DNA of 64,000 nt from Bacteroidia bacterium. GTDB lineage: Bacteria > Bacteroidota > Bacteroidia > UBA8524. The number at the start of each line of letters is the position of its first letter. The stretch's first letter is position 1. The notes beneath the pieces are model-generated. The model saw only the letters and a program-made list of their open reading frames with translations. It was not told where the DNA came from and searched no databases. The stretch lies in contig OZ244977.1 of NCBI GenBank assembly GCA_965222995.1, positions 582,095 to 646,094 on the forward strand, read 5' to 3'. This document shows, piece by piece, positions 34,737 through 54,861 of this stretch. Made by a program: the position numbers and the translations under genes.

Positions 34737-35165
34737 ATGGTGTTGCAACAAGAACATACAAAAGCAGTAGATACACTTAAAAGCCATAAGCTGCGTATCA
34801 CAGAAACCCGAACTAAGGTTTTAGGCTTATTTATGAACGGACATTTAGCCCTGAAACAGTCTGATGTTGAAGATGCTTTGGGTACTAAGTACGACCGTGT
34901 TACTATTTATCGTACTTTAAATTCTTTTTTAGAAAGTGGCATTATCCATAAAATACCTGACGATAGCGGGGCTACTCAATATGCTTTGTGCGATAATTGT
35001 GATGCACACGAACACCATGATGAGCATATCCATTTTAAATGCACCAAGTGCAATAAGCTGGAGTGTTTAGACCACTATACCGTACCTAAATTTGAAGTTC
35101 CTTTAGGATATACTGTAGCCTCTGCCGATATGGTAGTAATAGGCATTTGTGCAGAGTGTACTTAG
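34737..35165 (+). CDS. Fur-family transcriptional regulator
   Basis: A winged-helix N-domain (LRITETRTKVLGLF, RVTIYRTLNSFLESGIIHKI) and a C-terminal metal site (HEHHDEH, CTKCNK...C...C). Confidence 0.85.
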   Translation: MVLQQEHTKAVDTLKSHKLRITETRTKVLGLFMNGHLALKQSDVEDALGTKYDRVTIYRTLNSFLESGIIHKIPDDSGATQYALCDNCDAHEHHDEHIHFKCTKCNKLECLDHYTVPKFEVPLGYTVASADMVVIGICAECT

Positions 35166-36091
35166 TCTTTTAGTTCTCTAGAAATTAAGTTCTCATATTG
35201 CTGAAACTTATAGTTTTCTGATGTTGCGTTTGAAGAACCAACAACATGCCGAATAATTTTTCCATTTTTATCTACAAGAAACTGTTGGGGAACTCCTTGA
35301 ATATTTAAATGTGATGTGAGTTTTCCATCAACATCATAAAGTATTTTAATACCTTTATTAGCAAAATATTTATTTGTAAAGGCTTGTTTGTAAGTATCTA
35401 TCCTGCCTGTATTTAGTAATATTACTTCAAAATTCTCTTTTTTAAATTTATCTTGTACTTTAGTAAGTAATGGTAATTGTTCGATACAAGGCAAGCAACT
35501 GTTTCTATAAAATTCAAATAGAATAATTTTGCCTTGTAAATTGCCAATATTAGTTTTAATTGAGTCTTTGTTTAAAAGTGCATGTGGCGGGGTGCCATTA
35601 TATATATTTGTATTCAGTTTTGGTGATGTTAAGTTATCGATTAACTCATCCCAACGCCCTATTGAGTTGGCATAAATTATATTACTAATGGATACAAAAA
35701 CAATAAAAACTATAACTATGTAAGTTTTTTTTAATGAATGGACTAAATAACCTAAGTAGAACGAAAGGGTTGCCCAAAAAGGTAGTAGAGGCAAATCATG
35801 CCAAAACATTATTTGATGAGAATTATATGTTGAAAGTATGATGTATAAAGAAGGCAAGAGTAATAAAATAACCTCTAGCAATTTTATTTTTTTTGATTTA
35901 ACTATAAGACCTATAATAAAAAACAGAGTTGAAATTACTGTTGGTCTAAAGTATATATTTTCAATATAGCCGCTTCTAGTAAAACTCCATACTGTAACAA
36001 CTCCAAATCCTAGAACTAATAAGATTATATATTTTAATATTTTTTTCATTTTAAATAGTTCCAGTTTAATTAAGTTTATTAACTGGAACAA
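35162..36091 (-). CDS. Polytopic membrane protein with C-terminal TlpA-like thioredoxin (thiol-disulfide oxidoreductase) domain
   Basis: Roughly five N-terminal TM segments are followed by a thioredoxin fold with the active site CLPC (LFEFYRNSCLPCIEQLPLL) and a cis-Pro region (IQGVPQQFLVDKNGKI). A possible alternative start lies at 36049 (MKKILKYIILL). Confidence 0.75.
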   Translation of the reverse strand: MFQLINLIKLELFKMKKILKYIILLVLGFGVVTVWSFTRSGYIENIYFRPTVISTLFFIIGLIVKSKKIKLLEVILLLLPSLYIILSTYNSHQIMFWHDLPLLPFWATLSFYLGYLVHSLKKTYIVIVFIVFVSISNIIYANSIGRWDELIDNLTSPKLNTNIYNGTPPHALLNKDSIKTNIGNLQGKIILFEFYRNSCLPCIEQLPLLTKVQDKFKKENFEVILLNTGRIDTYKQAFTNKYFANKGIKILYDVDGKLTSHLNIQGVPQQFLVDKNGKIIRHVVGSSNATSENYKFQQYENLISRELKD

Positions 36092-36109
36092 TTACGACAC
36101 TGTAATTTA

Positions 36110-36763
36110 CTATGGGATATTCAGTGCAATAGGGCATAAACCATCACAAGCCCACCTCCAAAAAGTGCCACAACCCGACTTTTTCTTTTTACATGAGTTT
36201 CTTTTTTCACAATCACCTAAAAAAGGGATGCACCAATCTGAACCAGAAGAACATTTACAATTATTATTATCATCCTCTTCAAATATATCATCATTTAAAT
36301 AGTTGGGGTCAATGTCATCTAATGTATTTACTATTCTTTTAATAGTATTTTCATTGAAGTTCGGAATAGCTGATGCCACCCATGTTGGTTCAAATGTATT
36401 TTTAAAACTGATGTCTTCAGCACTCCCATCGGTGAATAAATTAATACTCAACTGGTTAAAAATACTATTCAAATCACTTAACTGTGCAGAGTTCCATACT
36501 GTTAATCCTAACACCTGGTTTTTCTTATCCAACCAAATATTATATTTCTCTGTGGGCGTACAAGTATTGTAAGTAGCTTTCCTTACTGATGGAGAAAGAG
36601 TTAGGAGATATGCTCTTGTAATTGTTGTTTTACGTTGAAAGGCTACTTTTTCATCACTATTATTAATTTGAGGTTCTGTTTCAGACTGAGTGGTTTTAGT
36701 GCAAGAACTCATTATTAATAGCCCGGCTATTAATAATGCAAATTGACTTTTTAATTGTTTCAT
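36110..36763 (-). CDS. Lipoprotein with Cys-rich C-terminal module (9 Cys in last ~50 aa)
   Basis: Lipobox LLIMSSC. The C-terminus is NNNCKCSSGSDWCIPFLGDCEKRNSCKKKKSGCGTFWRWACDGLCPIALNIP. It lies 18 nt upstream of the TlpA-like gene on the same strand. Confidence 0.6.
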   Translation of the reverse strand: MKQLKSQFALLIAGLLIMSSCTKTTQSETEPQINNSDEKVAFQRKTTITRAYLLTLSPSVRKATYNTCTPTEKYNIWLDKKNQVLGLTVWNSAQLSDLNSIFNQLSINLFTDGSAEDISFKNTFEPTWVASAIPNFNENTIKRIVNTLDDIDPNYLNDDIFEEDDNNNCKCSSGSDWCIPFLGDCEKRNSCKKKKSGCGTFWRWACDGLCPIALNIP

Positions 36764-36980: not shown

Positions 36981-37745
36981 TTAATCCCAGTGTACATGAT
37001 ACTCAACATCAGCATCGTTGTTTTTCAGGTCAAAGGCTTCAATAATTAATTCGTATTCACCTTTTGGCCAAGATGGATCAAAAACAATTTTCTCAGTAAA
37101 ATTTTCTCCCGTCCCGCTTAAGTTTCCATCAATATCTACATAATTTTTTTCTGTTCCTTCATGTATAAGCTTAATTTCATAACTCTTCAAGCCTTTATCA
37201 TCTCCTACAGTACCCTCAATTGTAATTTCATTACTATTTTTTAATTCTATTTCATTATTTGCATCAGGTGCAGGAGTGGTATTTACATTAAGAGTTGGGG
37301 CTATTAAATCTTCGGCGTTTTTTATTACTATTTCAGAAACAATAAAGTCAGCCTCATTGCCGGCTTTGTCAATTACTCGCATCGTAAAATCATAATTTCC
37401 AGCAGCTATATCAATGGGTAAAGTAATTTTAAAATTCAAATTAGCCGTTTTACCACTCAAATTAATAATACTGTCCCACTCAAAAGCAGGTGAGCCATTT
37501 TTCATGTGGGCATGTCCATCAAAGTTTTCGTGTATTTCTATCTTAGCCTGGCTAAGCTCAGTATCATCGTTAATGGTAGCTGAAATTGTAATATCATTCC
37601 CAGATGTAAACTCATCATCTTTTGAAGGGCTATTTAGCTGTACTGATGGCTTAGTGGTATCTTTTGGGCTGTTGTCATCATCTTTTTTACATGATGAGAT
37701 ACCTATTAATAGTAAGGCTGCAAGTGCTAAACTTAGTTTTTTCAT
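36981..37745 (-). CDS. Lipoprotein with two tandem Ig-like repeat domains (DUF4625-like)
   Basis: The start at 37745 gives MKKLSLALAALLLIGISSC. There are two repeats of ~90 aa (ITISATINDDTELSQAKIEIHE / ITIEGTVGDDKGLKSYEIKLIHE). The family name is from memory. Confidence 0.6.
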   Translation of the reverse strand: MKKLSLALAALLLIGISSCKKDDDNSPKDTTKPSVQLNSPSKDDEFTSGNDITISATINDDTELSQAKIEIHENFDGHAHMKNGSPAFEWDSIINLSGKTANLNFKITLPIDIAAGNYDFTMRVIDKAGNEADFIVSEIVIKNAEDLIAPTLNVNTTPAPDANNEIELKNSNEITIEGTVGDDKGLKSYEIKLIHEGTEKNYVDIDGNLSGTGENFTEKIVFDPSWPKGEYELIIEAFDLKNNDADVEYHVHWD

Positions 37746-50124: not shown

Positions 50125-51501
50125 TCAATTCTTAATTAAGGCAATAGCTTCATCAATGGTATAGCTGCCTTGCTCTCCGCTTTTTAGGTTTTTTAGGGTA
50201 AGCTGCCCGCTTTCCATTTCGCTTTCACCAATAATTACAGCAAAAGGTATTTGGTTTTTATTAGCAAAATCTAGCTGTTTTTTTAGCTTGGCATTAGTGG
50301 GATAAATTTCTGTATTTATACCCGCTTGTCTTGCTTTTACAGCTAAAGGAATGGCATAATCAATACCTTCACTTGTCATGCAGCAAAATAGCAGTTGCGT
50401 AAAATTACCATTTTGTTGCGGGAAGAGGTTTAGGGCATCCATTACATCGTAAATTCTATCTGCCCCAAAAGAAATGCCCACACCGGAAACTCCTTTCAAT
50501 CCGAAAATCCCCGTAAGGTCGTCATACCGTCCACCACCACCAATGCTCCCCATTGGGGTATCGTTGGCAGTGACTTCAAAAATGGCTCCCGTATAGTAGT
50601 TTAATCCTCGCGCGAGGGTAAGGTCAAGGTTCAGTTTAGTAAAGTCAAAGTTGGTTGCTTGTAAATATTTCCAAACCGTTTCCAGTTCTTCAATCCCTTT
50701 TTTACCGTCTTCACTAGTTTCTAGAGTTGTTTTAAGATAGGCTAATGTGGCTGTATTATCTCCCTTAAAGTTTATAATTTCTATAGCTTTTTTGGCTTGC
50801 TCATTAGTAAAACCTTTTTCTAAAAGTTCTTTTTCTACACCCTCAGCACCAATTTTATCCAACTTATCAATAGCTACTGTTAAAGGAGTAAGTTTATCTT
50901 CAACACCAATAGCTTGGGCAATGCCCATAAGTACTTTGCGGTTGTTAATTTTTATGGTAACGTTTATGCCCAGCTGCTCAAAAGCTTCGGCATAAATCAT
51001 TACTAAATCAGCTTCATTTAAAAGAGAGTCAGAGCCGATAATATCGGCATCGCATTGATAAAACTCACGGTAACGCCCTTTTTGGGGTCTATCAGCACGC
51101 CAAACGGGCTGCATTTGGTAGCGGCGGAAAGGGAAAGTAATATGAGTTTGGTTCATCACTACATAGCGGGCAATAGGTACGGTAAGGTCATAACGTAAGC
51201 CTTTTTCACTTATTTGTGATATCAGCTTATTGCTGTTGCGTTCATTCCAATCTTGTTCTTTTGCTTTTTTTGCGAAATCGCCTGAGTTAAGCACTTTGAA
51301 TAATAGAGTATCACCTTCGTCGCCATATTTACCCGTAAGGGTATTCAAGTTTTCCATACTTGGTGTTTCTATAGGCATAAAGCCATAGCGTTGAAACACC
51401 TGCTCTATAGTATTGAAAATATAGCGGCGGCGGGCGACTTCAATAGGTGAGAAGTCTCGGGTTCCTTTAGGTATTGATGGTTTTTGCATTACTCTGGGCA
51501 A
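50125..51501 (-). CDS. hisS: Histidine--tRNA ligase
   Basis: Class II aaRS motifs (GTRDF, RYDLTVP, FYQCDADIIG, GGGRYD) and a C-terminal anticodon-binding domain. The start could alternatively be at M5. Confidence 0.93.
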   Translation of the reverse strand: MPRVMQKPSIPKGTRDFSPIEVARRRYIFNTIEQVFQRYGFMPIETPSMENLNTLTGKYGDEGDTLLFKVLNSGDFAKKAKEQDWNERNSNKLISQISEKGLRYDLTVPIARYVVMNQTHITFPFRRYQMQPVWRADRPQKGRYREFYQCDADIIGSDSLLNEADLVMIYAEAFEQLGINVTIKINNRKVLMGIAQAIGVEDKLTPLTVAIDKLDKIGAEGVEKELLEKGFTNEQAKKAIEIINFKGDNTATLAYLKTTLETSEDGKKGIEELETVWKYLQATNFDFTKLNLDLTLARGLNYYTGAIFEVTANDTPMGSIGGGGRYDDLTGIFGLKGVSGVGISFGADRIYDVMDALNLFPQQNGNFTQLLFCCMTSEGIDYAIPLAVKARQAGINTEIYPTNAKLKKQLDFANKNQIPFAVIIGESEMESGQLTLKNLKSGEQGSYTIDEAIALIKN

Positions 51502-51634
51502 AAGTAATTAAATTTGATTGTTGGCGTTTTATACTTACCGTTGAATATATTTTCGTATAAAATTATCGAAATATTTTTCTTATTTCGGTTGAAATAAGTA
51601 TAATTATTTATCAATTCATTTAAAATTTTAGACT

Positions 51635-52123
51635 ATGAAAAAAATTGCATTAATCACTTTAATTTCATTTTTCAGTATCACATACTCTTATGCGTGGGTC
51701 AAAACTACTACTACAAAGACGAATGGAGGGCTGTTCGGGTATTCTTCTATTCAAGAACAATTAAGTGGACCCCCTACTTCTACAAACTGCACTTTTACTT
51801 TAAAATGTTGGGACCCAGGGTGGACAAAATGTAAATTTATTTATTATGATATTGCCAGTACATCTCAATATGGTTGTCAGTCGATTGTGATAAATAACCA
51901 AGGAGATGATGATTGGTGGGATGTTTTAAATGATGATATTAATAATCAAATTACTAATGGTCATTCAAGCGGTACTTTTGTGAGACAGGATATACAAATA
52001 ACACACCCCACAACTAACAACCTTGAAAATGCAGTAGTAACTTGGTCTTACTCTAGCTCTAATGATATTCTTGAAATGACGGTTTACAGTTATGGAGAAG
52101 CACAAGGTTTGGGAGTCATTTAA
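51635..52123 (+). CDS. Small secreted 4-Cys protein, paralog A
   Basis: 162 aa with a signal peptide. Cys spacing is C-x5-C-x7-C-x16-C. It shares the block SGTFVRQDIQITHPTTNN with paralog B. Confidence 0.6.
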   Translation: MKKIALITLISFFSITYSYAWVKTTTTKTNGGLFGYSSIQEQLSGPPTSTNCTFTLKCWDPGWTKCKFIYYDIASTSQYGCQSIVINNQGDDDWWDVLNDDINNQITNGHSSGTFVRQDIQITHPTTNNLENAVVTWSYSSSNDILEMTVYSYGEAQGLGVI

Positions 52124-52150
52124 AGTAAAAACTATCAAAACAATATAATT

Positions 52151-52633
52151 ATGAAAAAAGTAATAACATTAGTAACCGTTTCCCTAATATTTTTGGGTGA
52201 AGCAAATGCTTGGATAAAAATAAATTATCAAAAAGATAGGTGGAGACTTTTTGGGTATAAAAATGTACAAGAGAATTTTTCAAAATCAGGGACAAACTGT
52301 TCTTTTAGCTTGAACTGTAATAATCCTGGATTAAGCAGATGTAAATTTACTACTTATGACATTGAAAATCCTTCCTTATATGGCTGCCAAGCCATTGTAG
52401 TTAATAATTCCAGCGATAATGATTGGGCAGGAGTGTTAGATACTGATATAAAGGCTCAAATTGCAAATGGTAATAACAGTGGAACATTTGTTAGACAAGA
52501 TATACAAATAACGCATCCAACAACCAATAATTCAGAAAATGCGGTTGCGGTATGGTCTTATACTGCTGCCACAGATATAATAGAAATTTATATTTATAGC
52601 TACAATGAGGCTGTTGAGTTAGATATTATATGA
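52151..52633 (+). CDS. Small secreted 4-Cys protein, paralog B
   Basis: 160 aa with the same Cys spacing and the identical 18-aa block. Many synonymous differences at the nucleotide level indicate an old duplication kept under selection. The TGA stop overlaps the next ATG. Confidence 0.6.
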   Translation: MKKVITLVTVSLIFLGEANAWIKINYQKDRWRLFGYKNVQENFSKSGTNCSFSLNCNNPGLSRCKFTTYDIENPSLYGCQAIVVNNSSDNDWAGVLDTDIKAQIANGNNSGTFVRQDIQITHPTTNNSENAVAVWSYTAATDIIEIYIYSYNEAVELDII

Positions 52634-53844
52634 AAGGATTAATATTTTTAATAACGCTACGGTTAGTCTTTATAACTGTAGCGTTATTGTATTCGGTTAG
52701 TTGTTTTTCTCAAGGCTGCCATGAAACAGAATTTTCAGATTTTTCAGTTTTAGGATATAAAGGCAACCCCTTTAATGAGAACTATATTATTAGACAAAAA
52801 GGAGATAAAATTTATGCTGTGAAAACAGGTAATACTGCTTTTCTTATACAAAGTATTAGAGAGTTTGATACATTATGGGTTTATAATATAAAAACGAAAA
52901 ATATTAGTTTTTTCAAAGTGTCTAGTCAAGACATGAAGAGGAAGTTTAAAAACGATACTGGTAAAGATTTTTATATTAGTAATGACGGCAAACTTTATGT
53001 TCAGACTTATAGGTCAATTCACATTTACATTAAAAATGATAATGGTTTCAATTTTTTTAAATCAATAAAACCAAAATTTTCTTACTCATATATTTTAGGC
53101 GAAATTGGAAAGTTTCTGATATTATATGAAGGTTATAATTATCACCCTTTAGACCAAAGAGAAAAGGTTATTATCTCAAAGTTTTCTACAGTGAGTGATA
53201 AAGTTGTGAAGTCTATTTACCCCAAAATGCTTGGGGTTGAGTTAACCCACTCAAATAAACGCTTTTGTGATATATATAAAAATACTATTCTTTTTGCACA
53301 GCCCTTTAGCGATACTATTTGCATTTATAACAGTGAGTTGGAACGTATTGGCAATATTGAACTTAAACACAAAGTTGACTCTACAATAAAGATAAACTAT
53401 AAAGAATATAGCACCGACCAAATACAGAAACTATTAATGGAGGATTATCTGTATAAAAGGAACATTAAAGTTGATGTATTTGGAGATACTTTATTAGTTC
53501 TTTTTAAAAAGAAGTTTCAAAACTTTAGGGGTAGTGTTTGGTTTGATGTATACACTCATAAAAACAACACTTGGCAGTTAACAGATACTTCAAAGTTTAT
53601 ATCGTTTACGTTTGACAGTACTAAGAAGGTAACACCAACAACTACCTATGTGCCTTACATTATAGATAATAACCAAATTATAGTATATGAAGGTAATATG
53701 TATGAACTAATTAATAAGCATATTGAAATAGGAAAACCCATTTCATATAAAGAATATAACAACCTTGTTGATGTAGCATTTTATGAAAATACTTTTAAAG
53801 TAGCATTGCAAAAGCAGCCTTTAAAGTGTTTATTAAATCCTTAA
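52630..53844 (+). CDS. Hypothetical membrane-anchored or secreted protein (404 aa), translationally coupled to paralog B
   Basis: N-terminal hydrophobic segment LIFLITLRLVFITVALLYSV. The body is rich in Y/K/N/F. No motif I can assign. Confidence 0.5.
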   Translation: MKGLIFLITLRLVFITVALLYSVSCFSQGCHETEFSDFSVLGYKGNPFNENYIIRQKGDKIYAVKTGNTAFLIQSIREFDTLWVYNIKTKNISFFKVSSQDMKRKFKNDTGKDFYISNDGKLYVQTYRSIHIYIKNDNGFNFFKSIKPKFSYSYILGEIGKFLILYEGYNYHPLDQREKVIISKFSTVSDKVVKSIYPKMLGVELTHSNKRFCDIYKNTILFAQPFSDTICIYNSELERIGNIELKHKVDSTIKINYKEYSTDQIQKLLMEDYLYKRNIKVDVFGDTLLVLFKKKFQNFRGSVWFDVYTHKNNTWQLTDTSKFISFTFDSTKKVTPTTTYVPYIIDNNQIIVYEGNMYELINKHIEIGKPISYKEYNNLVDVAFYENTFKVALQKQPLKCLLNP

Positions 53845-53942
53845 TTATAAATCAATTGAAAAAGTAATTAAATTTGATACTAACATTTTGGCATCTAATG
53901 ATGTCTTATAGAAAAAGACTTAATTTATACTCAATAATAAAA

Positions 53943-54812
53943 ATGAAAAAAGTATTACTTAGTGCATTTGCTATAATGCTAATTTTCTCAGCTTGTAAGC
54001 CGGAAGACAACACAGTTGAGCCTACTACAACACCAGACCCAAATAATGGAGGTGGTAATGAACCACAAGAAATTGTAGTACCTGAAGTTAACATGTCTAT
54101 GGTAACTAAAGTAACAGGGTCTCTTTGCCCTCCTTGCGGAAGTTGGGGATGGACTGCTTTTGAAAGCCTAATTAACACGAATAAAGATGATGCATTTTTT
54201 GTAGGGGCTTATAGTGATAACTACGTAGCCAGATTGTTTATTACTGATGAGGCAGAAACTATGGAACGTGCTTGGGGAGTTACGGGTTTCCCAACATTTG
54301 CAGCCAATGGAATGCCTCAACTAGACCGTAATAGTGGAGTGAATGTTCAAAGCGAAATTAGTAAAACCAATGCTGTTGTAGCTTCACACAAATCAGGTGA
54401 AGTATTTGTGAATAGTGGCTTCCGTACTAGTGTTGATGCTAATAATATGATGACTATTGAAACCAAAACTAAATTTTTCAAAGATGTAGGCGGTGATGTT
54501 TTTGTTGCTGTTTATGTTATTGAAGACAAAGTTATTGGTGCCCAAAGCGGTCATCCTGATGGTGCTAATGCTTCTCACCACTATGTATTACGTGGTGCTG
54601 CTAAACTGGATGGTGCTGCAAAAGCTGAGACATGGGGATACCAAATAGGTAACCCGGGTACTACTATTACTCCTGCAAATACTGAAGTAGAAAACACTTT
54701 TACTATTGATGTAAGCGGATACGACCAAGCTAATACATCCGTAGCAGTTGTTGTTTATAGAAAAGTAGGTGTGCGTTACCAATTTTTAAATGCGTATAGC
54801 AATCAAAAATAA
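53943..54812 (+). CDS. Lipoprotein with thioredoxin-like features (CPPC motif + GFPT cis-Pro-like loop)
   Basis: The start at 53943 gives MKKVLLSAFAIMLIFSAC. The motif SLCPPCGSWGW is followed ~60 aa later by VTGFPTF. It has a ~150-aa C-terminal extension. Confidence 0.55.
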   Translation: MKKVLLSAFAIMLIFSACKPEDNTVEPTTTPDPNNGGGNEPQEIVVPEVNMSMVTKVTGSLCPPCGSWGWTAFESLINTNKDDAFFVGAYSDNYVARLFITDEAETMERAWGVTGFPTFAANGMPQLDRNSGVNVQSEISKTNAVVASHKSGEVFVNSGFRTSVDANNMMTIETKTKFFKDVGGDVFVAVYVIEDKVIGAQSGHPDGANASHHYVLRGAAKLDGAAKAETWGYQIGNPGTTITPANTEVENTFTIDVSGYDQANTSVAVVVYRKVGVRYQFLNAYSNQK

Positions 54813-54834
54813 AAATCATAAAAACAATAAATTA

Positions 54835-54861
54835 AGCCTCGCCTACAGCGGGGCTTTTTTT
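54835..54861 (+). terminator. Intrinsic terminator ending the four-gene cassette
   Basis: AGCCTCGC-ctaca-GCGGGGCT (8 bp with one G-U pair) followed by T7. Confidence 0.6.

What the first reader, a model, noticed from the sequence alone, without database searches (positions are those of the whole stretch)
51563..54861. Compact secreted four-gene cassette: two paralogous 4-Cys small proteins, a 404-aa protein and a thioredoxin-like lipoprotein
Genes 51635..52123 and 52151..52633 encode ~140-aa mature secreted proteins with the same Cys spacing (C-x5-C-x7-C-x16-C). They share an identical 18-aa block (SGTFVRQDIQITHPTTNN) despite many synonymous nucleotide changes, so this is an old duplication under purifying selection. 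The second overlaps, by ATGA, a 404-aa hydrophobic-N-terminus protein of no recognisable family. Thirty nt further on is a lipoprotein with CPPC and a downstream GFPT loop, a thioredoxin-like oxidoreductase signature. The block is bracketed by nested hairpins at 51563..51600 (CGAAATA/TATTTCG and CTTATTTC/GAAATAAG) and a clean terminator at 54835..54861, so it looks like a self-contained unit. The pairing of disulfide-bonded exported proteins with a dedicated redox lipoprotein recurs in the window (see 35162..36763). Possible roles are lectin- or effector-like proteins with their own folding catalyst, or a toxin/immunity-type arrangement. I cannot place any of the four in a known family.
Basis: partly seen in the sequence, partly recalled or inferred. 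Interest (0 to 1): 0.65.

Follow-up and report, generated by a model that had tools for sequence, protein, structure and literature searches.

The report
Three-gene exported-protein cassette beside resident lipoprotein
The block is a rare, GC-poor three-gene cassette found only in Bacteroidota (two small exported disulfide-loop proteins, a conserved RNA hairpin, then an exported beta-propeller) that sits next to an unrelated resident redox-type lipoprotein; none of its families has been described and its function is unknown.

Summary
All four ORFs exist and A and B are true paralogues. The unit, however, has three genes, not four.

- **Linkage.** A-B-C occurs without the lipoprotein D in another genomic context. 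D occurs next to hisS without A-B-C. One relative keeps C and D but lacks A and B.
- **Boundaries.** The cassette is a 30% GC trough in 39% GC flanks. Its edges are an exact 19-nt direct repeat that carries a Bacteroidota -7 promoter box.
- **D.** D is an Omp28-family lipoprotein with a probable thioredoxin-like N-terminal domain.
- **Wider family.** A profile search found about 50 clusters of distant relatives of A/B, none with a Pfam or NCBIfam match. All nine distant neighbourhoods I examined read: small gene(s), then a C-like ~390-aa protein, then a ~120-180-aa gene. In all eight that could be read, that last gene encodes an exported CxxC protein.
- **C.** The model of C is a beta-propeller. 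Its nearest solved structures are uncharacterised Bacteroides exported propellers (DUF4221, BF0058).
- **New feature.** A terminator-like hairpin with strong covariation follows the last small gene in nearly all modules. This implies the small proteins are made in excess over the propeller.

The redox-partner idea therefore holds for the family but not for D. I found no literature on any of these families.

The parts
51500..51518 (+). Left copy of the exact 19-nt direct repeat AAAAGTAATTAAATTTGAT. It contains TAAATTTG (51509-51516), which matches the Bacteroidota sigma-A -7 box TAnnTTTG. It marks the left edge of the GC trough.
   Evidence: exact repeat, spacing 2360; the empty site in L012 has one copy. 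GC profile. PMC9723704 for the -7 consensus.
51568..51599 (+).
   Evidence: -8.6 kcal/mol, z -2.1. In L004 only the second hairpin is predicted (z -1.0). No Rfam match.
51635..52123 (+). Gene A. A Sec/SPI-exported acidic small protein (mature about 142 aa, pI 4.3). It has the motifs K-x-NGGLFGY, C-x-DPG-x3-C and C-terminal YSxxEAxxLG[IV]I, plus a second, subfamily-specific Cys pair.
   Evidence: Family profile hits. AF2 model pLDDT 66, with only generic alpha/beta matches.
52151..52633 (+). Gene B, a paralogue of A (52% identity) with the same motifs. It is the position-2 orthologue group.
52649..52689 (+). Conserved 17-bp stem-loop followed by a U-rich stretch. It starts 19 nt into gene C, inside the signal-peptide codons. 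I read it as an attenuator/terminator, or a 3' stabiliser of the A-B transcript.
   Evidence: I8.: -24.2 kcal/mol, z -4.8, present in all six loci of this subfamily; 10 of 14 pairs compensatory, 97.6% of cells paired, 0 of 500 shuffles; absent in the C-only locus L005 and present in most distant modules.
52630..53844 (+). Gene C. An exported (cleavage ...CFS|QGC, Q at +1) basic protein (pI 9.2) of 404 aa, modelled as a beta-propeller. The family-wide motif is Y-x-[YF]-H-P-x-D.
53860..53878 (+). Right copy of the 19-nt repeat, with the -7-like box at 53869-53876. It is the probable promoter of D and the right edge of the GC trough.
53943..54812 (+). Gene D. A resident neighbour, not a cassette member. 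It is a lipoprotein with a CPPC/GFPT thioredoxin-like N-terminal region and an Omp28-family C-terminal domain.
   Evidence: PF11551, E 9e-11; weak hit to Omp28 structure 2r2c; hhalign against thioredoxin, probability 62%; found without the cassette.
54834..54856 (+). Intrinsic terminator of D.

Best explanation
The feature is a three-gene accessory operon (A, B, C). It is one subfamily of a rare module that appears confined to Bacteroidota.

**Canonical form of the module**
1. One or two small, acidic, Sec-exported proteins with an invariant Cys-x-[DN]-P-G-x3-Cys loop.
2. A terminator-like hairpin.
3. An exported beta-propeller of about 390-400 aa.
4. An exported CxxC protein of about 120-180 aa.

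**Shown**
- The gene order and linkage.
- The export signals.
- The conserved hairpin, supported by covariation.
- Indel behaviour of the cassette at the hisS-D site.
- Independence of D from the cassette.

**Inferred**
- The hairpin stops or stabilises most transcripts after the small genes. A and B are then the abundant products, and the propeller (and CxxC protein, where present) is made in smaller amounts by read-through.
- A and B act as a pair, because position-specific orthologue groups are kept.
- The module's CxxC protein forms the loop disulfide of the small proteins.
- The basic propeller binds the acidic small proteins, either as a guard/immunity protein or as an assembly/maturation factor.

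**This genome.** The cassette has no CxxC gene of its own. It sits between hisS and the resident CPPC lipoprotein D, under a duplicated copy of D's promoter segment. D could supply redox help incidentally, but it is not dedicated to the cassette.

**Role.** The patchy, GC-poor, strain-variable distribution, together with retention of C alone in one lineage, makes a role in competition or defence my leading guess (about 0.3). A maturation or assembly role for C is about equally likely.
For: **Linkage**
- A-B-C are together in W, L004, L007, L009, L013 and L001-L003.
- Nine distant neighbourhoods all read small gene(s), then a ~383-408-aa protein, then a ~120-180-aa gene: L018-L023, L025, L026 and a contig of GCA_041443065.1.
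- The C-like proteins are homologous to C (E 4e-6; HMM E 1e-8 to 1e-19; alignment).
- The third protein carries CxxC in all 8 cases where it could be read.

**Hairpin**
-.

**Export signals**
- Read directly from the sequences. C-like and CxxC proteins follow the Bacteroidetes Q-rule (PMC5837995).

**Indel behaviour**
- The empty site L012 is 96.7% (hisS) and 99.0% (D) identical in nucleotides to the occupied L007, and lies inside a cassette-bearing clade.
- GC is 30.4% against 39% in the flanks.

**Selection and charge**
- Purifying selection: dN/dS 0.07-0.17.
- Small proteins have pI 4.2-6.2. The propeller has pI 8.5-9.2 in 7 of 10 modules.
- L005/L006 keep an intact C with a new but valid signal peptide and no hairpin.
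Against: - No biochemical function is established for any component.
- Both AF2 models are only moderate (pLDDT 66-67).
- The CxxC proteins match no thioredoxin model. Their CxxC could be a metal site rather than a redox site.
- In this window the U-tract after the hairpin is weak, and the consensus terminator scan did not flag it. The hairpin may act on translation or RNA stability rather than on termination.
- No expression data exist.
- No route across the outer membrane is evident: there is no T9SS C-terminal domain and no lipobox in A, B or C.
- Retention of C alone argues against C being only a helper for A/B.
- Low dN/dS argues against a classic diversifying toxin-immunity pair.
Confidence: 0.5

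Rival explanations
1. One reading: a self-contained four-gene unit in which the CPPC lipoprotein D is the dedicated folding catalyst for A, B and C.
For: - D follows C in every hisS-locus relative that has the cassette.
- There is no terminator between C and D.
- D's N-terminal region aligns to thioredoxin with CPPC and GFPT in register.
- Canonical modules have a CxxC gene at exactly this position.
- The same 19-nt promoter segment precedes both the cassette and D.
Against: - A-B-C occurs without D in L001-L003.
- D occurs without A-B-C in L012, L011, L014 and L015.
- D has its own promoter-like box and a normal GC content of 39%, against 30% for the cassette.
- D is not detectably homologous to the module's CxxC family (hhalign probability 0.1%; no HMM hit).
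Confidence: 0.12
2. A Sec-dependent, two-component protein bacteriocin. A and B are made in excess and released, for example in outer-membrane vesicles. C is the periplasmic immunity protein. The CxxC protein is a disulfide accessory factor, like PedC of pediocin loci (own knowledge).
For: - The layout of structural gene(s), hairpin, then downstream partner genes matches the operon logic of many bacteriocin loci (own knowledge; hairpin).
- Two paralogous structural genes are kept as position-specific groups.
- The module is a patchy, GC-poor islet gained or lost among close relatives.
- C is retained intact, with dN/dS 0.17, after A/B were lost in L005/L006. This is the pattern of an orphan immunity gene.
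- The family is very rare: about 50 clusters among 1.84 billion representative proteins.
Against: - There is no toxin, pore or hydrolase signature.
- A/B are acidic, not cationic.
- No transporter, lysis gene or outer-membrane export signal is present.
- The proposed immunity protein is three times larger than the proposed toxin.
- There is no sign of diversifying selection.
- No homologues occur on plasmids, phages or IMG/VR contigs.
Confidence: 0.25
3. A periplasmic enzyme system. C is a catalytic beta-propeller and A/B are its small subunits, substrates or inhibitors. The CxxC protein is its dedicated oxidoreductase. Analogies (own knowledge) are methylamine dehydrogenase (propeller heavy chain, small disulfide-rich light chain, thioredoxin-like MauD) and assT-dsbL-dsbI.
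For: - C-family proteins keep a polar motif set across modules at or below about 20% identity: Y169, H172, P173, D175, K184, Y233, R277, D306 and W315.
- The propeller fold is shared with many periplasmic enzymes, including the aromatic amine dehydrogenase heavy chain (TM about 0.4).
- The C-like and CxxC genes overlap, which suggests coupled synthesis.
- C persists without A/B.
Against: - The structural matches to enzymes are no better than to generic propellers. The best hits are uncharacterised exported Bacteroides proteins.
- Trp residues of A/B are not conserved across the family, so a TTQ-type cofactor is unlikely.
- No transporter, electron carrier or regulator for a metabolic pathway is linked.
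- The hairpin implies unequal stoichiometry, which is atypical for obligate subunits.
Confidence: 0.13

Closest known systems
DUF4221 (PDB 3s9j, BVU_1028) and BF0058 (PDB 4raa): uncharacterised exported beta-propellers of Bacteroides
   Different: There is no sequence-level relationship: no Pfam hit at E <= 1 and no PDB profile hit at E <= 10. Identity in the structural alignments is 8-13%. These families have no known function either, and a literature search for DUF4221 found nothing.
Omp28 outer-membrane lipoprotein family (PF11551; P. gingivalis Omp28, PDB 2r2c)
   Same: D passes the Pfam gathering score (42.4 against 34.9 bits, residues 106-276). It has a lipoprotein signal and a local match to the 2r2c sequence.
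   Different: D scores far below the NCBIfam Omp28 cut-off (17.6 against 150). It also carries a CPPC/GFPT thioredoxin-like N-terminal region, and the CPPC part lies outside the Pfam match. D is a neighbour, not a module component.
Operons with abundant structural gene(s), then a hairpin, then low-abundance accessory genes (own knowledge: nisA-type bacteriocin loci, pediocin pedA-B-C with the thioredoxin-like PedC, cpcBA or pufBA followed by a hairpin)
   Same: The gene logic matches: one or two tandem paralogous small genes, a conserved stem-loop, then partner genes that include a CxxC protein.
   Different: There is no homology to any of these. Export uses Sec signal peptides, not double-glycine leaders. 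No ABC transporter is present. The small proteins are folded alpha/beta domains of 110-140 aa. The differential expression is inferred, not measured.
Propeller enzymes with dedicated thiol-disulfide partners (own knowledge: MauB/MauA/MauD of methylamine dehydrogenase; assT-dsbL-dsbI)
   Same: An exported propeller, small Cys-containing exported protein(s) and an exported CxxC protein are encoded together.
   Different: There is no sequence similarity. The cofactor Trp residues are not conserved. The CxxC proteins are not recognisably thioredoxin-fold. No electron-transfer partners are linked.

Membership tests
Omp28 family (PF11551 / NF033782), for D | Match to the family HMM above the curated threshold | tested here: met
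   Pfam PF11551: E 8.8e-11, 42.4 bits against a cut-off of 34.9. The stricter NCBIfam NF033782 is not reached (17.6 against 150), so D is a divergent member.
Omp28 family (PF11551 / NF033782), for D | Lipoprotein signal peptide with a lipobox Cys | tested here: met
   MKKVLLSAFAIMLIFSAC, with Cys18. It is invariant in orthologues.
Thioredoxin-like fold, for the N-terminal region of D | CxxC at the beta1-alpha1 junction and a cis-Pro loop about 45-55 residues later, with homology to thioredoxin profiles | tested here: inconclusive
   CPPC is at 62-65 and GFPT at 115-118, both conserved down to 26% identity. hhalign against TrxA/TXN/PDI-a gives probability 62% and E 7e-5, with both motifs in register. 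No Pfam thioredoxin family hits at E <= 1.
DUF4221 (PF13970), for C | Match to the family HMM | tested here: not met
   No Pfam family at E <= 1 for C or for its distant homologues. No PDB sequence hit to 3s9j.
DUF4221 (PF13970), for C | Same fold (exported Bacteroides-type beta-propeller) | tested here: met
Thioredoxin-fold oxidoreductase, for the CxxC proteins of distant modules | Detectable homology to thioredoxin-fold families | tested here: not met
   No Pfam hit. No relevant PDB hit. hhalign against thioredoxin gives probability 0.1%. Only the strand-CxxC-helix pattern and a later Pro-strand pattern are visible.
Class II / two-peptide bacteriocin locus | Double-glycine leader and a dedicated ABC transporter/peptidase | tested here: not met
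   A/B have classical Sec/SPI signal peptides (...SYA|W...ANA|W). No transporter gene lies in any of the loci.
Class II / two-peptide bacteriocin locus | Antibacterial activity of the products and protection by the adjacent gene | not testable with these tools
   This needs growth-inhibition and immunity assays.
Intrinsic terminator / attenuator, for 52649-52689 | Stable GC-containing stem-loop conserved by covariation | tested here: met
   Folding energies run from -20 to -27 kcal/mol, z -4.3 to -6.1, in six loci. 10 of 14 pairs are compensatory and 0 of 500 shuffles reach the observed values.
Intrinsic terminator / attenuator, for 52649-52689 | U-tract immediately 3' of the stem | tested here: inconclusive
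   The U-tract is clear in L004, L007, L009, L013, L018, L019, L020 and L026. It is weak in the window (UUAUUGUAUU) and was not flagged by the consensus scan.
Transposon or integrative mobile element, for the cassette | Encoded transposase/integrase and terminal inverted repeats | tested here: not met
   The repeats enclose only A, B and C. There are no terminal inverted repeats. Direct repeats of variable length (5, 9 and 19 nt) flank the cassette in different lineages. No plasmid or phage homologues were found.

The most novel reading that the evidence does not exclude
The small Cys-loop proteins, the C-type propeller and the CxxC protein make up a previously undescribed exported system that appears confined to Bacteroidota. 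It could be a new kind of Sec-dependent two-component protein effector with a propeller immunity or maturation partner. It is expressed through a conserved intra-operon attenuator and is gained and lost as a small islet.
Probability: 0.25. Interest if true: 0.75.

Novelty: categorically new. Interest (0 to 1): 0.5.

Why it matters
Three co-inherited protein families have no Pfam or NCBIfam model, and I found no literature on the families searched. Together with a covarying RNA hairpin they form a recognisable module in uncultured Bacteroidia. If the module mediates competition or envelope defence, it would add a new class of exported effector and partner system to a phylum whose secreted-protein biology is known mostly from T9SS, T6SS and MACPF toxins.

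Natural presence/absence pairs give ready-made comparisons:
- L007 (occupied) against L012 (empty site).
- L004 (A-B-C) against L005 (C only).

The practical lesson is that apparent functional pairing with a neighbouring redox lipoprotein can be plain synteny. The real redox-type partner showed up only in distant relatives.

Tried and rejected
**Family and structure searches that found nothing useful**
- Pfam, NCBIfam, PHROGs and PADLOC scans of A, B and C gave nothing. The same holds for 31 family members.
- PDB sequence searches with profiles of A/B, C, the wider C family and the CxxC family gave nothing meaningful.
- The afdb50 structure library was unavailable.
- Multi-repeat proteins hit by the A/B profile (P0030, P0067, P0068) are HYR or Ig-like repeat proteins, so those matches are spurious.

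**Collection searches**
- The first genome-contig scan with D alone found nothing. The scan with an alignment worked.
A narrower alignment worked.
- Plasmid, phage and IMG/VR searches were all negative.
- An exact-sequence look-up of A and of P0001 found no record.
- The source organism could not be named.

**Other checks**
- Homology of D to the module's CxxC family was rejected.
- Rfam found nothing in the region.
- Literature searches on Omp28/thioredoxin, NVEALA/beta-propeller, DUF4221 and BF3164/DUF5128 returned nothing relevant.
- Positive selection on A, B or C was rejected: dN/dS is <= 0.17.
- A transposon-type insertion was rejected: there is no transposase and no inverted repeats.


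Full report
**1. The observation**

The four ORFs are real: A 51635..52123, B 52151..52633, C 52630..53844, and a lipoprotein gene D.
- A and B are 52% identical, E 1e-61.
- The 18-residue block is identical in both, with 11 of 54 nucleotides different.
- B and C overlap by ATGA.
- D carries CPPC and GFPT.
- The terminator at 54834-54856 is strong.

Four details are wrong.
- The last Cys spacing is x14, not x16.
- D starts at 53943 (MKK...FSAC), as in its orthologues. C and D are therefore 98 nt apart, not 30.
- The upstream hairpins are two weak, mutually exclusive AU-rich alternatives, z -2.1.
- Hairpins and terminator do not bracket one unit, as shown below.

**2. What belongs together**

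The family is extremely narrow.
- A retrieves only 7 proteins from 5.8 billion.
- C retrieves only 6.

Their genomic contexts settle the linkage question.
- In a Bacteroidia MAG (L001-L003) the trio A-B-C lies between a 3-HAO cupin gene and a response-regulator/histidine-kinase pair. No D is present.
- In relatives syntenic with the window the order is hutH-hisS-A-B-C-D-PMT-TonB receptor (L004, L007, L009, L013).
- In L005/L006 only C and D are present, and 106 bp separate hisS from C.
- In L012, a complete Bacteroidia chromosome, hisS is followed after 87 bp directly by D.
- In L011, 6.6 kb of unrelated genes (TetR, two SDRs and others) fill the same gap.
- D homologues at 26-39% identity exist without the cassette in L014 and L015.

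So A-B-C is the unit, and D is a resident neighbour. Pfam places D in the Omp28 family.

**3. The cassette as an indel**

- An exact 19-nt direct repeat, AAAAGTAATTAAATTTGAT, lies at 51500-51518 and 53860-53878. The empty site in L012 has one copy.
- The repeat contains TAAATTTG. This fits the sigma-A -7 consensus TAnnTTTG of the phylum (PMC9723704). The cassette and D are therefore each preceded by the same promoter-like segment.
- Other lineages have shorter junction repeats, about 5 nt in L007 and about 9 nt in L013.
- GC is 30.4% in A-B-C, against 39% in hutH-hisS and in D. The trough edges coincide with the repeats.
- L012 is 96.7% (hisS) and 99.0% (D) identical in nucleotides to the occupied L007, and nests inside a cassette-bearing clade. 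L005 is closest to the A/B-bearing L004.
- The most economical history is an old acquisition at this site, followed by a precise loss in L012 and loss of A/B in L005. The junctions differ between the two clades, so remodelling or repeated insertion cannot be excluded.
- The cassette contains no transposase or integrase. No plasmid, phage or viral-contig homologues were found.

**4. Selection**

- Against L004, the flanking genes have dN 0.02-0.03. A and B have dN 0.14-0.19, with dN/dS about 0.1.
- C in L005, which lacks A/B, has dN/dS 0.17 and remains intact. Its signal peptide is different but still valid.
- The cassette genes evolve several times faster than their neighbours but remain under purifying selection. 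C appears to keep a function without A/B.

**5. The wider family**

- A profile of A/B searched against 1.84 billion representative proteins gave 55 hits at E <= 1e-3. Three are spurious repeat proteins.
- The rest are exported proteins of 120-167 aa that share three features:
  - K-x-NGGLFGYK-x-V-x-E;
  - an invariant C-x-[DN]-P-G-x3-C loop;
  - a conserved C-terminus, YSxxEAxxLG[LI][IL].
- The second Cys pair of A/B is specific to their subfamily.
- No member matches Pfam or NCBIfam.

I examined nine neighbourhoods of distant members, at 21-35% identity to A.

| Loci | Gene order |
|---|---|
| L019, L021, L022, L023 | two tandem small genes, a C-like protein of 395-408 aa, a protein of 158-179 aa |
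| L018, L020, L025, L026, and a contig of GCA_041443065.1 | one small gene, then 383-401 aa, then about 120-140 aa |

- The large proteins are homologous to C. They share Y-x-[YF]-H-P-x-D and a few other polar positions.
- The last protein has a signal peptide and a strand-CxxC-helix motif in all eight readable cases: CRSC, CSSC, CIGC, CKSC, CSGC, CHQC, CRDC and CFDC. It often overlaps the end of the propeller gene.
- This CxxC family has no detectable relation to thioredoxin models or to D. A redox role is plausible, but a metal-binding role is not excluded.
- The window's subfamily lacks this gene, both at the hisS site and in L001.

**6. Structures**

- The C model (pLDDT 67, pTM 0.69) is a beta-propeller.
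  - The best Foldseek match is BF0058, PDB 4raa.
  - Both are uncharacterised exported Bacteroides proteins. There is no sequence-level link to either.
- The A model (pLDDT 66) is an alpha/beta sandwich with only generic matches.
- D's N-terminal region aligns to thioredoxin/PDI with CPPC and GFPT in register, probability 62%.

**7. A conserved hairpin**

- A 17-bp stem-loop at 52649-52689 begins 19 nt into C: -24.2 kcal/mol, z -4.8.
- Equivalent hairpins occur in all six loci of this subfamily, including the unrelated context L001. Their sequences differ, and 10 of 14 pairs show compensatory changes. 97.6% of cells are paired, and no shuffle out of 500 reaches the observed values.
- Most are followed by a U-run.
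- The C-only locus L005 has none.
- Distant modules have a comparable hairpin plus U-run directly after the last small gene:
  - intergenic in L020 and L026;
  - over the C-like start codon in L018;
  - inside the 5' end of the C-like gene in L019, L021 and L022;
  - weak in L023 and absent in L025.
- What these positions share is that they follow the small genes. This points to partial termination or 3'-end stabilisation, so the small proteins would be made in excess over the propeller and the CxxC protein.
- Translation in this phylum is also tuned by mRNA structure near start codons (abstract of PMC6847099), which would act in the same direction. This is inference; no expression data were available.

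**8. Mechanism**

- All components carry Sec signals. The C-like and CxxC proteins follow the Q-rule (PMC5837995).
- None has a T9SS domain, and only D has a lipobox.
- The small proteins are acidic, and the propeller is basic in 7 of 10 modules.
- Position-1 and position-2 small proteins form separate clades.

My best reading:
- an abundant exported A/B pair whose loop disulfide is made by the module's CxxC protein where one is present;
- a less abundant propeller that binds the pair.

Whether the propeller guards against them (immunity), matures or assembles them, or is itself an enzyme cannot be decided here.
- Islet-like, strain-variable distribution and the orphan C favour a competition or defence role.
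- Low dN/dS, acidic products and the lack of an export route or toxin signature argue against a classic bacteriocin.

**9. Verdict**

The block is a member of an undescribed three- or four-component module with a conserved RNA element. Its function is unknown.

Noticed in passing
window 52649-52689 (also L004 4178-4214, L007 8023-8057, L009 7988-8020, L013 6721-6751, L001 5574-5608): A strong stem-loop with covariation lies just after the B stop and C start. It is conserved across contexts and absent where A/B are absent.
   Followed up: yes
window 51489-51518, minus strand: The left 19-mer also reads TACTTTTG on the minus strand, 9 nt upstream of the hisS ATG. The segment may therefore be a back-to-back (bidirectional) -7 box serving hisS and the cassette, which would leave hisS almost leaderless.
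   Followed up: partly
L011 1339-8000: In this relative the hisS-D gap holds 6.6 kb of unrelated genes (TetR-type regulator, two short-chain dehydrogenases, a 497-aa exported protein, a small lipoprotein). The hisS-D intergenic region is thus a hotspot for variable content. The record is titled 'uncultured Burkholderiales', but the gene content and synteny are Bacteroidia-like, so it is probably mis-binned.
   Followed up: partly
L005 7895-8080: The C-only allele has about 85 nt of different upstream sequence and a completely different but still valid signal peptide (MDSIFSKKTFSFLLVSFTLLSLQPIFA|QGC). A 13-nt stretch (TTAGCTTTAAAAG) is shared with the left junction of L011, which hints at recombination between alleles rather than a simple deletion.
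   Followed up: partly
A membrane-anchored TlpA/Redoxin-type thioredoxin protein (CLPC; Pfam Redoxin, E 5e-13) lies next to a 217-aa lipoprotein with a Cys-rich C-terminal tail and no Pfam match. The thioredoxin assignment here is solid. Linkage across genomes was not tested.
   Followed up: partly
window 36981-37742, minus strand: A lipoprotein with two DUF4625 domains (E 2e-31) lies just upstream of the Cys-rich lipoprotein/TlpA pair.
   Followed up: no
L001 4579-5547: In the non-syntenic context the two small genes cluster with each other rather than with A-type and B-type clades. This suggests gene conversion or an independent duplication in that lineage.
   Followed up: no
L019 1397-1765, L022 2879-3118, and the GCA_041443065.1 contig gene at 1199-1531: Small helix-turn-helix (XRE-type) genes lie immediately upstream of three distant modules, possibly as dedicated regulators. 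No such gene is present in the window.
   Followed up: no
window 53874-53942: The longest-ORF rule extends D by 23 codons from a TTG. This extension overlaps the promoter-like repeat and is absent in orthologues, so it is an annotation trap.
   Followed up: yes
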